Shown here: positions 24,450-45,110 of the stretch, one piece after another
Numbering within the stretch: the first letter of the stretch is position 1
How the letters are laid out: the number at the start of each line of letters is the position of its first letter
Origin: Podarcis muralis
Taxonomy: Eukaryota
Length of the DNA stretch: 64,000 nucleotides
Reading direction: 5' to 3'
NCBI RefSeq assembly: GCF_964188315.1
Contig: NC_135673.1
Span: 14,570,001-14,634,000 of the forward strand
Program-made: the position numbers

Positions 24450-27400
24450 TCATCCGCTCTCCCAAAATACAAGACGCCAGGGTGTCCCGTGCCTCCCCTG
24501 CCAGAAGAAACCCAACCATTAGCCCGTTTAGAGGACCGATGGCGGCGGATTGAAAGTCCGCCGCTACAACAAACACAACTCACCATCTTGGCTTCGGCTT
24601 CGAAAAGGAAGGGCAGGAAGCGCGGGGCGGGCCTTAGAAATCCGCGGAGCGGAAGTAAACTCTATAGTTATACGTCTATGGTCGTTGTGGCTTTTCACCG
24701 TAGTGATGCAAGCCTATAGGAGGCCGCTCCTCATCCATAAAGAATCCTGGTCCGTGCCTAGAGCGTAACCGGTTTATTGCCGGTGACAGTATCAAAGCGA
24801 GCATGCGGCTGCAAACCACGCCTGCGCACGAAAGCAGGCATGAGGAACGCGTGGACGGTCAGCCCCAGTCAGCGTAGCTTGGGTTCACGGGACACTTAGC
24901 GTACTCCATGCCGATTATGTTGTGAAACGAGCTATATGTTTAATTAATAATAAATAGTTCAGCAACATCCTTCTTTCCCCAACTGACAATGTCTGCCCAA
25001 CGTTATTTCCTCACTTACTGCCCCTGTACATAAGACACAGATATTTGTGCAGTGATGTACAACAGCTCCTAAGCATGTACAGTGTGTGTTCCCTTAAGTT
25101 TCTAATCAGAGTTAAAATGAAGCCCTACCCAACCCCCAAAGAAGCAAAGTATCAAAGGACACATGGCACAGCTTCTCTCCTAAGCTGTTGGGCTGCCCAC
25201 GACCAAAATTCCCTGAGGCACTTGTCGCCACCTGTCCTGTATAATACAGGATTGTCCCATATTTGAATGTAAAACGCAACGTCCTATATTGAAACAGTTT
25301 CGTCCTGTATTTCAGGTCCGTCCCGCCCCCTCTCGCTGCCAAGCTACGGATCCTGTCCAAATGCATGTGTCCGAAAGGGTGTGTGAAAGGTCATGTATTT
25401 AAGCTCTGGGTAGCAAAGCACAGATAAATTCACGTGTGTGTGTGTGAGACAAATTCTAGTTGGGCCATCCGGTTAGGCTGCAATGGATGGCAATGGATTG
25501 CTTTGAAGTCACTTCAGCACCAGTGGGGGCGGGAATCACCCACCAAACACCCCACCCTACCCTGTCCTGTAGTTTGCTAGAACAATAGTGGCAACCCTAG
25601 CTCTGGTGGCTTGTGTTTATAAAAGAACCACAGGCAAAGTTGAGACTTGAGACTAGTTGCTGAGGATGAAATCTCCCCCCCCTTCCGCACCCATGCCTTC
25701 TCTGTTGTAAACTCCACTTCCCACATTTATGGAACACTCTTCCTAAGGGAGAGATTTAAGGTCCCAGATTAAATCCCTAACATTTCCAAGTAGGGCTGGG
25801 AGATTCCCAGATTCATGGAGTGCTGATGTCAGTCAGTATATACAATACTGACAGCATACCCTCCAACATTTCTCTGATGAAAATAGGGACATCCCATTCC
25901 ATAATTATAATTTTATTATTTATACCTGATACATCTTACTGGGTTGCCCCAGCCACTCTGGGCAGCTTCCAACATTTATAAAAACAGAAAACATTGAAAA
26001 ACTGCCTTCAGATGACTCAGGGGTAGGATAACTCCACACCCTCCAACATTTCTCCAATGAAAATAGGAACAACCGAATGAAAAGTGGGACATTCTGAGAT
26101 CAAATCAAAAACTGGGCAGGCTTTTCTAAATCAAGGACAGCCCTGGAAAATAGGGACACTTGGAGGGTCTGTACTGAGTTAGATGAACTACCGTATTTTT
26201 CGCCCTATAGGGCGCACCGGCCCATAGGGCGCACCTAGGGGGGTTTTTTTTGGGGGGGGAATAAAGAAAAAAAATCCCCCCAGGCGCAGGGGCTGGGGAA
26301 GCCCGAGCTTCCCCCGACCCCAGCCCCCAGAACAGGCTGCTATCCGCAAGCCTCGGGAGCCCGGCGGGAACTCCCACGGGCTCCCCAGGATTGCGGATAG
26401 CTTCCTGAAGCCCAGAGAGCGAGAGGGGTCAGTGCGCACCGACCCCTCTTGCTCTCCAGGCTTCAGCGAAAGCCTGCATTCACCCCATAGGACATTTCCC
26501 CTTCATTTCATGCGTCCTATAGGGCGAAAAATACGGTAACTGTTAAAGAAAATAAGGAGGTTGGCTTTTGCTGCCCAACTCCCCAAGGGACTGAGTCCAC
26601 TAAGTCCATGATTGGTCAGAAAGGAATGGCGGTAGGATGCACTGAAAGCAAGGCAGATCTTTATTTTTCTGTTGCAACAGAGTTCCCTCCCCTCCTTGCA
26701 AGGAGGCAAGAGAGACCTAGAACAATGGTGCACAAGCCCCTATAAAGACTTTGAAAACTGCCCACCCTGTAGCCCAAGACCACCCCAGAAACATCATACA
26801 TACATTGCAGAAGGTGGTCTCCAGCAGAAATTTGAGTGCGTTGCTTCTCTCCTGTCTACCAGAATACCTGATAACGCCTTACTGATTGCATTTTCTGGGT
26901 AGCCTAGCCATTCCTTTGAGATGGTAAATACTTTAGTTCCTGAATCTCCTTTTTACAAATTTACATCTTATTGATAGTCTGCTCAGTTTAGCAGAAACTT
27001 GCCAGACTGGATTTGCAGGGAGGATTTGCAAGTGAAAAGACAATTGGAAAGTTTCTCCCATCCTCCTGCTGCAGAGAAATATTTGAGGTCCTTTGGGGAG
27101 AGTCAAAATGGTTTCAGGATTGCTCTCTTGTACTATTTTAGACACGTGGTTTATATGCTTATCTATGTGTGTTTACCTTGTGCATTTATGAACATTTATT
27201 CTATATATGCACCTGCCTGTTCTGCCTTCTTCCGGTTCAAAAGGGCACATGCATTTGCGATCACACATCAATTGAATCACACACCTAATCTAGTTCCTGC
27301 CTGTATATCAGAAATTGAATCACTTCTCTGCTCTTTCACATGCCTCTAGTATCTGTGTTACATCTAATCAACAACCGTTTCATTTTTATTGTCTACAAAA

Positions 27401-42400: not shown

Positions 42401-45110
42401 CCTGCGAGACCATCCTACGATTTTATTTTAATTTTTTGTTTATTTACTTTTAACTTTTACCTTCACGAGACTTTGATCCCACAATGGCCAGTTTAGTCAA
42501 CAAAGACTCTTACCTGCAGAAATTGGCCAAGAAAATTTGCACCCAGGAAGCCCCCGAGCCACGAAAAAGGAAATTTGGTACAATTATCTGATGCTGTCAT
42601 TTACTTCTCTAGATCAGGGTTTTTTGTAGTAGTGCATCCTCCTTGGTTATTGTAATTATTTTCATTTATTTATTTCACAGGATTGATATACTGCTTGTGA
42701 TGAAACCTCAAAGTGGTAGTACTTAATGTTTTCCCTTATTTTAACCACAGCTCATTTTAGATTATAATCTGCTCAGGAAAGGGTCCTGATGCCACAATGG
42801 AATGACAGTAGTGTGTTTTGAAAATGCAACTTGGAAAAATTCAGCTGTCTTGTCTTGGTGCTTCTTGAAGACCTCCAGAAGTTGCTGGACTACAACTCCC
42901 ATCATTCCTGATCAGCCATACTGGCTAAGGTTGATGGGAGTTGGAGTCCAGTAACATCCGGAGGGCATTCTAACATGTATGTTCTTAGGCATTTACAGTG
43001 GACGCTCGGGTTGCGAATGTGATCTGTGCGGGATGCACGTTCGCAACCCGCAGTGGTGCATCTGCGCACGCATGGGATTTGGCGCTTCTGCACATGCGCG
43101 ACCACCAAAACCCGGAAGTAACCCATTCTGGTACTTCCTGGTTTCGGCGATCCGTAACCCGAAAAAACACAACCTGAAGCGGCTGTAACCTGAGGTATGA
43201 CTGTATTCCTTGCAGATTGCAAAATATTTTCCTCTCTTTGTTTAATGAAGTCTTGTGTCTCTGCCTTCAAACATTCCCAGGAACTGGACTGGGAGACGAT
43301 AGCACCCAGCCAAAGAAGAAGAGGAAGAAGAAACAGAAGAAGCAAGGCAAGATAGTGGGCACCTCTCTGGGCAAGCAGACAGCACCTGGGGGCAGCCAAG
43401 CATCACCAGCCAAGCCAACAAATGCCAGTATTCAGAAATCTGGCCCAGTTATCCATGCTGCACCCAGTTCCAGTGGATCTCAGAATACTGGGGGGAAAGG
43501 GGACAGAAGCCAAAACGATGTTGCAGGTGAGAGTGTTTCTACAGCCAGTCAGTTAAGCTACTGGGCTGGTTTCTCACATAACTCTAAGCAATGGTTTAGT
43601 AACTCATATTTTAGCATTATGTGTGAACCAGGCCACTGAGTTTAGCTGAGTTGAGTTTAGCAGCAATTTGGGTTGGGACACAGGTCATGTGCTTTCTCCT
43701 GTTTCCCCTTACAGGTGGTGACAAGAGCACAGCCGGCTCATTTTCAGCCATGAATCTCTTGCGGCAGAGACTGCACGAGAAGATCCAAGAAATCTCTGGC
43801 CAGGTAAGATCAGCACCCTCCTTTAAAATGTTGTCACGATGTGGAGAAAGCCTGGAGAATCCAAAGCCAATTTTAGCCTGTGGGCATATGCCAGCTTAAT
43901 CTGGGAGCAAGCCTTGTTTAGGGCAGTGCAACTTGCTCCTAATTAAACACCCACAGAATTGCACTGTTAGACGTATGGTGGAAATATTCCTATGCTTCTA
44001 GTATTCTGGTTCCAGTTGATATCATACTGGCTTCTGCTCTACCTTGATTTGAACTAAAACAGTTCACCCATCTTTGGAGGCCAGATTTTGGAGGATGTAA
44101 TGGGGGGTGGTTGATGTATAATAGGGGTGGGGAACCTATGGCTCTCCAGATGTTGAACAGCCAGCTTCCATCAGCCCTGGCCACCATTGCCAGTGGTCAG
44201 GGATGGTTAGAAACATCTGAAGGGCTACAGGTGAGTGTATAAATGTAACACTCTCTTCAGTCAGGCCTGTTTGTACTTTGTGATTCTGTTCAAACATAGC
44301 ATGGGTGAGAAATATTTGGGTGAAAAAAATCAGCTTTTTAATAATCTTAGCTTTACTGTTTTCACTCTAAAAAGCAAGTTTGTAGATCACATGGCTGAAA
44401 ATATAAGCTTACAGCTATACATTCTAAGCTTCCAGTGTCCTGTGCACCTTACCCCTCTCCAAGAGAAAGATAGGCAGTGATCCTAAGGATAAGCATGAGC
44501 CTAAGTATGCAAATGAAGAACCTTTCTGTTGGTTCAAGGAGAGAGAGAAAAAGGTATATAAAAATGAGAATTTCTGGATACCATTATCCAAGTTTGGGGC
44601 AAGTACTCTTTGGCAAAAGAACACCAGCAGAGATTTGAAATAGCAAAATACACAACAAAGTAAAGTATGGAAATAAGGATAGGATTTTTAGACTTTTAAA
44701 ATATGCCACTTAAAGTGAGTTCCAAAGTTTCCCTCTTTCAGTAGCTTAGAAAAAGAACACATTTGGCAAATTAAAAAGTTTACTTACAAGCTCTCCAAAT
44801 GTCAGATTCATGTGCTTTTCCATACAGCAGTCAGAAAAAACTGCACAGCACAGGCAATAAAATGTGGCTTAATTACGGTGGTGCAAGTTCCTAAATCATT
44901 GGTATAGGAACTGAAGAGTGACTTGTGAAAGCTGAGCAACGACATCCTCTTACACCTGAACTGCTCAGGTAAACTGGGAGAGAACAAAGCCTTGATTATC
45001 CAGTCTCTCCCAGAGTGAGCTAAGCACATTGATTGTATGAGGCTAGTTATCCCACAGTTCCAATAACTTTTGCAGTATTTAGGTTTTTTCTGTAAACGTG
45101 TAATATATAG

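What the first reader, a model, noticed from the sequence alone, without database searches (positions are those of the whole stretch)
24586..42577. MED22 is inverted relative to the mammalian Surfeit layout, re-pairing the promoters
Known: in human and mouse MED22 is head-to-head with RPL7A and co-oriented with SURF6. Seen: here RPL7A and MED22 are both on the minus strand, while MED22 and SURF6 diverge from one CpG island whose opposing splice donors (41235 and 41449) are only about 215 bp apart. Inference: an inversion of the MED22 unit swapped the RPL7A/MED22 bidirectional pair for a MED22/SURF6 pair. Which arrangement is ancestral cannot be read from this window.
Basis: partly seen in the sequence, partly recalled or inferred. 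Interest (0 to 1): 0.68.

Follow-up and report, generated by a model that had tools for sequence, protein, structure and literature searches.

The report
MED22 flipped in a lizard Surfeit locus
In this wall-lizard sequence the gene MED22 points the opposite way from its mouse counterpart, so it starts next to SURF6 rather than next to RPL7A; this is a real but modest change in a classic conserved gene cluster.

Summary
The window is lacertid lizard DNA, Podarcis or a close relative, not human: one SURF1 exon is 100% identical to P. muralis and the last SURF6 exon is 98% identical to P. lilfordi. It carries intact SURF1 (+), RPL7A (-), MED22 (-) and SURF6 (+).

MED22's four coding exons run 38632 down to 32678 on the minus strand, in Pfam/PDB order, with GT-AG borders. 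RPL7A is also on the minus strand (ATG at 24586, four intronic snoRNAs). SURF6 is on the plus strand (ATG at 42484).

The only non-repeat CpG island between the MED22 and SURF6 start codons is 41.0-41.9 kb. It holds the window's only CAG|GTAAGT, with the exon ending at 41449.

No transcription start could be verified.

There are no Ns, no flanking inverted repeats longer than 87 bp, and no second MED22 copy, so an assembly mis-orientation is unlikely but not excluded.

A single inversion of the segment between the two islands, relative to the mouse layout, is the simplest reading. Which layout is ancestral could not be tested, because no vertebrate genomes were available and the original Surfeit papers were not held.

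Interest is modest. Also noticed: no SURF2 next to the SURF1 promoter island.

The parts
7240..18883 (+). SURF1, nine coding pieces (7240-7311, 8164-8244, 9771-9908, 10492-10578, 11647-11841, about 12960-13009, 13104-13265, 15682-15774, 18806-18880). It lies tail-to-tail with RPL7A.
   Evidence: Pfam SURF1 hits. tblastn of the named Podarcis muralis and P. raffonei SURF1 proteins against the window. One exon is 100% identical to P. muralis isoform X3.
19778..24620 (-). RPL7A (eL8). ATG at 24586-24584 in exon 1. Further exons lie within 24168-24449, 22624-22887, 22193-22375, 21565-21714, 20911-21087, 20519-20623 and 19840-19968. AATAAA at 19799 and 19778. The start near 24620 is inferred from a pyrimidine tract.
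21240..23021 (-). Four intronic box C/D snoRNAs: SNORD36 at 21240-21319 and 21877-21954, SNORD24 at 22451-22524 and 22947-23021.
   Evidence: Rfam gathering-score matches, 63.6-82.5 bits.
24300..25000 (.). CpG island at the RPL7A 5' end. It has no recognisable divergent partner on the plus strand.
   Evidence: CpG o/e 0.71-1.19. Best plus-strand donor score in 24600-25600 is 3.0. No MED22-like relic.
25000..32100 (.). Repeat-rich spacer between the RPL7A promoter and the MED22 3' end. It includes dispersed repeat copies and a 172-bp inverted-repeat pair at 29747-29916 / 30626-30797.
   Evidence: Self-blastn, the repeat finder, and no Pfam hit for 3 of 3 ORFs tested there.
32678..32867 (-). MED22 last coding exon. 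Stop codon at 32677-32675. ATTAAA at 32112 and 31887.
   Evidence: PDB MED22 chains, residues 126-199. Acceptor acag|T. Poly(A) signals.
34962..35170 (-). MED22 coding exon 3 of 4.
   Evidence: Pfam Med22 positions 49-104, 67.4 bits. Borders ctag|GTT and CAG|gtacaa.
37585..37665 (-). MED22 coding exon 2 of 4.
   Evidence: Pfam Med22 positions 24-50, 20.1 bits, below the cut-off when taken alone. Borders gtag|ATT and ATT|gtgagt.
38510..38657 (-). MED22 exon carrying the ATG (38632). An acceptor at 38657 (gtgagcag|CT) implies an upstream non-coding exon.
   Evidence: Pfam Med22 positions 1-23, 23.5 bits. Sequence read.
41000..41900 (.). CpG island between the MED22 and SURF6 start codons; candidate shared promoter. 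It contains GGGGCGGGG (41303), a YY1-like AAAATGGCCGCC (41241, minus strand), an ETS core (41331) and an NRF1-like site (41507).
   Evidence: The motif names are recalled, not taken from a tool.
41235..41378 (-). Zone holding the two most plausible candidate donors for a non-coding MED22 first exon (41235 tct|GTAAGA and 41378 cct|GTGAGG). Neither is verified.
41390..41449 (+). Candidate non-coding SURF6 first exon ending at cag|GTAAGT. Its start is unknown.
   Evidence: The only CAGGTAAGT in the window. No upstream ATG open to the donor within 250 nt.
42470..42577 (+). SURF6 exon carrying the ATG (42484). A 45-nt pyrimidine tract followed by AG at 42468-42469 lies just upstream, with an alternative AG at 42387-42388. 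Donor TTG|gtacaa.
   Evidence: Sequence. tblastn with P0001.
43281..46530 (+). SURF6 coding exons 43281-43526, 43715-43803 and 45865-46527, plus the stop codon. AATAAA at 46587.

Best explanation
This is a genuine gene-order variant of the vertebrate Surfeit locus in a lacertid lizard. As in mouse, MED22 sits between the CpG island at the RPL7A 5' end and the CpG island at the SURF6 5' end. Here the whole MED22 transcription unit is turned round. Its 3' end now faces RPL7A across about 7.5 kb of repeat-rich DNA, and its 5' end points into the SURF6 island.

The simplest history is one inversion of the segment between the two islands. I infer that this happened in the lizard lineage.

How it most likely works (inferred, not shown): MED22 starts from a short non-coding exon inside the 41.0-41.9 kb island and splices to the ATG exon at 38657. 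SURF6 starts from a non-coding exon ending at 41449 and splices to its ATG exon about 1 kb downstream. The two housekeeping genes would then be driven divergently from one CpG-island promoter. RPL7A keeps its own pyrimidine-tract promoter but has no coding partner on the other strand.
For: Shown:
- Strands and exon order of RPL7A, MED22 and SURF6.
- MED22 is intact and single-copy in the window. Each of its 4 exon peptides is found once at 100%; the next-best E-values are 2.0, 0.14, 1.0 and 0.042.
- Both ATG exons have acceptor-like sequence just upstream.
- The only CpG-rich stretch between the two ATGs that is not a repeat is 41.0-41.9 kb. The CpG-rich stretch at 39.0-39.4 kb is a dispersed repeat, 90% identical to 4855-5207.
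- The only CAGGTAAGT in 64 kb is at 41447-41455, on the SURF6 strand.
- Sp1-, YY1-, ETS- and NRF1-like motifs lie in the island.
- The sequence is contiguous, with no N. Only one inverted pair links the two putative breakpoint zones, 87 bp at 83%, and it lies beyond the SURF6 ATG exon.

Mouse layout for comparison: PMC9929512 section 4 and the title of Garson 1995 in its reference list.
Against: - No transcript, CAGE or cross-species data could be used, so neither first exon nor any start site is verified.
- The minus-strand donor at 41235 scores about 0 in my crude matrix. It also leaves a 5-codon upstream reading frame with a strong start context. 41378, 41467, 41634 and 41213 are equally possible.
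- The crude matrix also scores the verified SURF6 donor at 42577 at -3.3, so it discriminates poorly.
- The AG directly before the SURF6 ATG exon is a GAG, an uncommon acceptor by my recollection. A weak CpG patch at 42.2-42.5 kb (o/e 0.6-0.8, GC 0.41-0.45) could hold an independent SURF6 start about 1 kb from MED22.
- The direction of change rests on my recollection that chicken shares the mouse arrangement (Colombo 1992; only the title was seen).
Confidence: 0.62

Rival explanations
1. The lizard layout (MED22 head-to-head with SURF6) is the older one, and the RPL7A/MED22 pairing arose by inversion in the mammalian lineage, or independently in mammals and birds.
For: Nothing in the window gives the direction of change. 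No relic of a former MED22 first exon or donor was found beside RPL7A: the best plus-strand donor score in 24600-25600 is 3.0, and there is no MED22-like fragment there.
Against: By recollection only, chicken was reported to keep the organisation of five Surfeit genes seen in mouse (Colombo 1992; title seen, text not held). If Surf-5 is among those five, parsimony makes the lizard state derived.
Confidence: 0.2
2. The MED22 block is mis-oriented in the assembly, and the real genome has the mammalian layout.
For: Only one assembly copy was seen and no reads were available. The flanks of the block are repeat-rich.
Against: - No N anywhere in the window.
- No inverted-repeat pair flanks the block. 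The only bridging pair is 87 bp at 83% and lies on the wrong side of the SURF6 ATG exon.
- Flipping only 32.1-41.3 kb would leave the 41.0-41.9 kb island split.
Confidence: 0.06
3. MED22 and SURF6 are head-to-head but do not share a promoter. MED22 uses the 41.0-41.9 kb island alone, and SURF6 starts just upstream of its ATG exon (about 42.39-42.47 kb), 1 kb or more away.
For: A weak CpG patch at 42.2-42.5 kb (6-7 CpG per 200 bp). The AG before the ATG exon is in a GAG context. The annotated lacertid SURF6 protein starts at this same ATG, which says nothing about an upstream exon.
Against: A 45-nt pyrimidine tract ends 4 nt before that AG, which looks like an acceptor. ATG triplets at about 42357 and 42365 would sit in an unspliced leader. 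The unique consensus donor at 41449 on the SURF6 strand would be left unexplained.
Confidence: 0.25

Closest known systems
Mouse and human Surfeit locus (Surf1-Surf6; Fried laboratory)
   Same: The same genes SURF1, RPL7A, MED22 and SURF6 in the same order. SURF1 and RPL7A are tail-to-tail. CpG islands mark the RPL7A and SURF6 5' ends, with MED22 between them (for mouse; for the window).
   Different: MED22 is in the opposite orientation, so the RPL7A/MED22 divergent pair is replaced by a MED22/SURF6 divergent pair. The islands are about 16.5 kb apart here, against about 8 kb in mouse. No SURF2 was found beside the SURF1 promoter island.
SURF1/SURF2 bidirectional CpG-island promoter, and head-to-head housekeeping pairs in general
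   Same: Two unrelated housekeeping genes on opposite strands leave one CpG island that carries Sp1-, YY1-, ETS- and NRF1-like motifs. PMC11436901 passages describe the SURF1/SURF2 shared promoter.
   Different: Start sites here are not mapped, so the usual criterion of less than 1 kb between them is not demonstrated. Both first exons are predicted non-coding exons.
Fugu Surfeit homologues (Armes, Gilley and Fried 1997)
   Same: By recollection, another vertebrate in which the mammalian Surfeit arrangement is not fully kept.
   Different: Only the title was seen in reference lists and the paper is not held, so no detailed comparison was possible. The lizard keeps four genes adjacent, with one turned round.

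Membership tests
Vertebrate Surfeit locus (mammalian-type layout) | SURF1 and RPL7A adjacent and tail-to-tail | tested here: met
   SURF1 on the plus strand ends at 18883. RPL7A on the minus strand has its stop at about 19840 and AATAAA at 19799/19778.
Vertebrate Surfeit locus (mammalian-type layout) | RPL7A and MED22 head-to-head from one CpG island | tested here: not met
   Both genes are on the minus strand. The MED22 3' end, not its 5' end, faces the RPL7A promoter.
Vertebrate Surfeit locus (mammalian-type layout) | MED22 and SURF6 co-oriented, with the SURF6 island next to the MED22 3' end | tested here: not met
   MED22 is on the minus strand and SURF6 on the plus strand, diverging from 41.0-41.9 kb.
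Vertebrate Surfeit locus (mammalian-type layout) | SURF2 divergent from SURF1 within about 100 bp, and SURF4 beyond it | tested here: inconclusive
   SURF1 exon 1 is at 7240-7311, inside a CpG island at 6.7-7.7 kb. 0 of 10 minus-strand ORFs in 6184-7339 hit a SURF2 family. No recalled SURF2 motif was found anywhere in the window. Short or divergent exons could have been missed.
Bidirectional CpG-island promoter (head-to-head pair) | Two genes on opposite strands transcribed away from each other | tested here: met
   MED22 ATG exon at 38657-38510 (minus) and SURF6 ATG exon at 42470-42577 (plus).
Bidirectional CpG-island promoter (head-to-head pair) | Transcription start sites less than 1 kb apart | not testable with these tools
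   No transcript or CAGE data were available. The predicted donors at 41449 (strong) and at 41235 or 41378 (weak) would fit this, but they are predictions.
Bidirectional CpG-island promoter (head-to-head pair) | A CpG island spanning the intergenic region | tested here: met
   CpG o/e 0.72-0.96 over 41000-41900, against 0.33 for the window.
MED22 / Surfeit locus protein 5 (Pfam PF06179) | Match to the family profile over its length | tested here: met
   Three exon ORFs cover profile positions 1-104 of 105 in order. One passes the cut-off alone (67.4 bits) and two fall below it (23.5 and 20.1 bits). The C-terminal exon matches PDB MED22 chains. Exons were tested singly; the joined protein was not built.
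Evolutionary micro-inversion | The same segment in opposite orientation relative to conserved flanks in an outgroup, with definable breakpoints | not testable with these tools
   No vertebrate genome collection was available. The comparison with mouse rests on PMC9929512 section 4. No breakpoint scars or flanking inverted repeats were seen.

The most novel reading that the evidence does not exclude
A lineage-specific inversion in lacertid lizards, or more widely in squamates, moved MED22 from the RPL7A CpG island to the SURF6 CpG island. MED22 then acquired a new non-coding first exon from upstream antisense transcription of the SURF6 promoter. Together with the apparent absence of SURF2 beside SURF1, this would mean that the supposedly constrained tight Surfeit pairings can be dissolved and re-formed. 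It would be a natural promoter-swap experiment on co-regulation by bidirectional promoters.
Probability: 0.3. Interest if true: 0.45.

Novelty: new variant of a known kind. Interest (0 to 1): 0.3.

Why it matters
The Surfeit locus is a textbook case of unrelated housekeeping genes held in very tight, alternating head-to-head and tail-to-tail pairs. That arrangement has been taken as a hint that the juxtaposition itself is functional. A lizard in which MED22 has changed partner from RPL7A to SURF6 while all three genes stay intact argues that the particular pairing is not essential. It also offers a natural test of whether sharing a CpG-island promoter imposes co-expression.

The scope is limited. 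Single-gene inversions are common in vertebrate genome evolution. The arrangement is presumably already visible in the public annotations of Podarcis genomes. By my recollection, Fugu already showed that the cluster is not inviolable.

Tried and rejected
- Cross-species check of orientation: not possible.
- Original Surfeit papers (Colombo 1992, Armes 1997, Huxley and Fried 1990, Garson 1996, Gaston and Fried 1995): not held.
- Six literature searches: none found a paper on Surfeit gene orientation in reptiles.
- PMC5571153 maps gene order around ABO, SURF6 and MED22 in many vertebrates. The passages I saw give no orientation for single genes. Its figures and supplements could bear on the claim and were not visible.
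- Duplication followed by loss instead of inversion: no second copy or relic of any MED22 exon in the window.
- Recombination between flanking inverted repeats, or mis-assembly across them: no suitable pair.
- Relic of a divergent first exon beside RPL7A: no convincing donor.
- Donor scoring with a matrix built from recalled frequencies: poor discrimination, since a verified donor scores -3.3. I use it only to say that 41235 is not uniquely supported.
Only open ORFs were sent afterwards.
- PDB search with the helicase-like ORF: 0 hits at E 0.001 or better. The 748-852 ORF gave only a chance hit at E 0.31.
- ARAGORN found 0 tRNA genes, although Rfam reported a tRNA match at 56043-56111.
- The joined (spliced) MED22, SURF6 and RPL7A models were not built or searched. 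Every search used single exons or single ORFs.
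Full report
**What the window is.** The 64-kb window has no N, a GC content of 0.445 and an overall CpG o/e of 0.33, as expected for vertebrate DNA. The last SURF6 exon is 98% identical to a Podarcis lilfordi SURF6 protein. The next-best hits are other squamates at 84% or less. One SURF1 exon is 100% identical to Podarcis muralis SURF1 isoform X3 and 98% identical to P. raffonei. I therefore take the window to be from a lacertid lizard, Podarcis or a very close relative, and not human.

*SURF1, plus strand.* Two exon ORFs hit Pfam SURF1. 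The named Podarcis SURF1 proteins align in order from 7240-7311 to 18806-18880.

*RPL7A, minus strand.*
- The ATG at 24586-24584 is followed by gtgagt and preceded by a pyrimidine tract.
- ORFs 21565-21714 and 20911-21087 hit Ribosomal_L7Ae.
- ORF 22624-22887 matches eL8/L7a chains with E about 6e-29.
- Two SNORD24 and two SNORD36 copies lie on the minus strand in its introns.

*MED22, minus strand.*
- Three exon ORFs hit Pfam Med22 at profile positions 1-23, 24-50 and 49-104, in descending coordinate order.
- Only the third passes the curated cut-off alone (67.4 bits). The other two score 23.5 and 20.1 bits against a cut-off of 26.
- The last-exon ORF matches residues 126-199 of a 200-residue MED22 chain in the PDB.
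- The exact coding exons are 38632-38510, 37665-37585, 35170-34962 and 32867-32678, with AG/GT borders and phases that fit.

*SURF6, plus strand.*
- The last exon hits PF04935 with E 1e-41.
- The Podarcis lilfordi protein aligns in order to four blocks.
- The exact exons are 42484-42577 (from the ATG), 43281-43526, 43715-43803 and 45865-46527.

*Hit counts.* In one search, 4 of 10 ORFs had a family hit. The six without a hit were the MED22 last exon, three SURF6 N-terminal ORFs and two RPL7A N-terminal ORFs. In one search, 5 of 10 had a hit.

**The observation.**
- Between the two start codons (38632 and 42484), the only CpG-rich stretch that is not a repeat is about 41000-41900, with o/e 0.72-0.96.
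- The CpG-rich patch at 39.0-39.4 kb is a dispersed repeat, 90% identical to 4855-5207.
- The plus-strand donor cag|GTAAGT has its last exon base at 41449. CAGGTAAGT occurs once in the window on both strands together.
- The minus-strand site at 41235 (tct|GTAAGA) exists but is weak. In a crude matrix built from recalled frequencies it scores about 0. The sites at 41378, 41467, 41634 and 41213 do no worse.
- With the donor at 41235, a five-codon upstream reading frame in a strong start context would sit in the leader. With 41378, there is no upstream ATG within 250 nt.
- Both ATG exons have acceptor-like sequence just upstream: gtgagcag|CT at 38657 for MED22, and a 45-nt pyrimidine tract followed by AG at 42468-42469 for SURF6.
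- So a non-coding first exon for each gene is plausible. The stated spacing of about 215 bp is a prediction, not a measurement.

**Comparison with the known layout.** A review states the following for mouse (PMC9929512 section 4):
- The Surf6 5' end lies in a CpG island about 8 kb from the island holding the Surf3 (Rpl7a) 5' end.
- Surf5 (Med22) lies between them.

[quoted passage not shown] The lizard window has the same two islands, at 24.3-25.0 kb and 41.0-41.9 kb, with MED22 between them but turned round. One inversion of the segment between the islands is the simplest link between the two layouts.

**Artefact and other histories.**
- There is no N.
- A gapless repeat search found 6 inverted pairs in 23-44 kb, none flanking the MED22 block.
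- A self-blastn of the window gave 161 rows. Only one inverted pair has one arm in 24.6-32.7 kb and the other in 41-44 kb. It is 87 bp at 83%, and it lies beyond the SURF6 ATG exon, so it cannot mark the needed breakpoints.
- tblastn with the four MED22 exon peptides found each once at 100%, with next-best E-values of 2.0, 0.14, 1.0 and 0.042. There is therefore no relic of a plus-strand copy.
- No convincing plus-strand donor lies beside the RPL7A promoter.
- Mis-assembly is thus unlikely, but it cannot be excluded without reads.

**Direction of change.** I could not test this. No vertebrate genome collection was on hand and the Fried-laboratory originals are not held. From memory, Colombo et al. 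1992 reported that chicken keeps the organisation of five Surfeit genes. Only the title was seen. If Surf-5 is among those five, the lizard state is derived. I put about 0.6 on that.

**Likely mechanism.** Most of this is inferred. The island carries GGGGCGGGG (1 of 3 in the window), a YY1-like AAAATGGCCGCC (1 of 2), an ETS core and an NRF1-like site (1 of 4) (the motif names are recalled). This fits a housekeeping CpG-island promoter that fires in both directions. RPL7A keeps its own promoter and island but has no recognisable coding partner on the plus strand.

**Is it in print?** Six full-text searches found no paper on Surfeit gene orientation in reptiles. PMC5571153 compares gene order around ABO, SURF6 and MED22 across many vertebrates. 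The passages I saw give no orientation for single genes, and its figures and supplements were not visible to me.

**Verdict.** The feature is real, and it is a variant arrangement of a well-known locus. It is of modest interest: single-gene inversions are common, and the genes themselves are ordinary and intact. Its value would rise if the change proves lineage-specific and the shared promoter is confirmed.

Noticed in passing
window 6700-7700 and 1-7200: SURF1 exon 1 (7240-7311) lies in a CpG island at 6.7-7.7 kb, but no SURF2 was found on the other strand. 0 of 10 minus-strand ORFs in 6184-7339 hit a SURF2 family, and no recalled SURF2 motif occurs in the window. SURF4 was not seen either. 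The SURF1/SURF2 pair may also be broken in this lizard, or the exons were too short or divergent to detect.
   Followed up: partly
window 5713-5898 (-), within ORF 5395-6024: A lone exon-like piece of a senataxin-type helicase. It hits Pfam AAA_12 with E 2.7e-10. It is only 74% identical to a Podarcis raffonei 'probable helicase senataxin', and no other part of that protein matches the window. It is probably a diverged duplicate or pseudogene fragment.
   Followed up: partly
window 55082-62535 (+); CpG-rich 50001-50500: Three plus-strand ORFs match Pfam DUF4455 at profile positions 20-67, 136-194 and 289-331, in order. Only the middle one passes the cut-off. This is a further gene downstream of SURF6, possibly starting at the CpG-rich stretch near 50 kb.
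   Followed up: partly
window 4855-5207, 38996-39359, 1107-1418, 15073-15418: Four copies of a CpG-rich dispersed repeat of about 360 bp, 71-90% identical to one another. By eye it looks tRNA-derived. One copy sits in MED22 intron 1 and could be mistaken for a CpG island.
   Followed up: partly
window 56043-56111 (-): Rfam reports a tRNA match at 39.9 bits, but ARAGORN finds no tRNA gene in the window. It is probably a repeat-derived tRNA-like sequence.
   Followed up: partly
window 36177-36990: A GC-rich block (GC 0.58-0.64) of nested palindromes and tandem copies inside the MED22 intron between 37585 and 35170. It is repeats, not a promoter island.
   Followed up: no
window 29747-29916 and 30626-30797: A 172-bp inverted-repeat pair, 96% identical, enclosing about 700 bp with long ORFs on both strands and no Pfam hit. 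It looks like a transposon remnant in the RPL7A-MED22 spacer.
   Followed up: no
window 34955-34963 (-): Reading through the donor of the third MED22 coding exon gives ...SSRYK and then a stop. By my recollection, mammalian Surf-5 has a short isoform made in this way.
   Followed up: no
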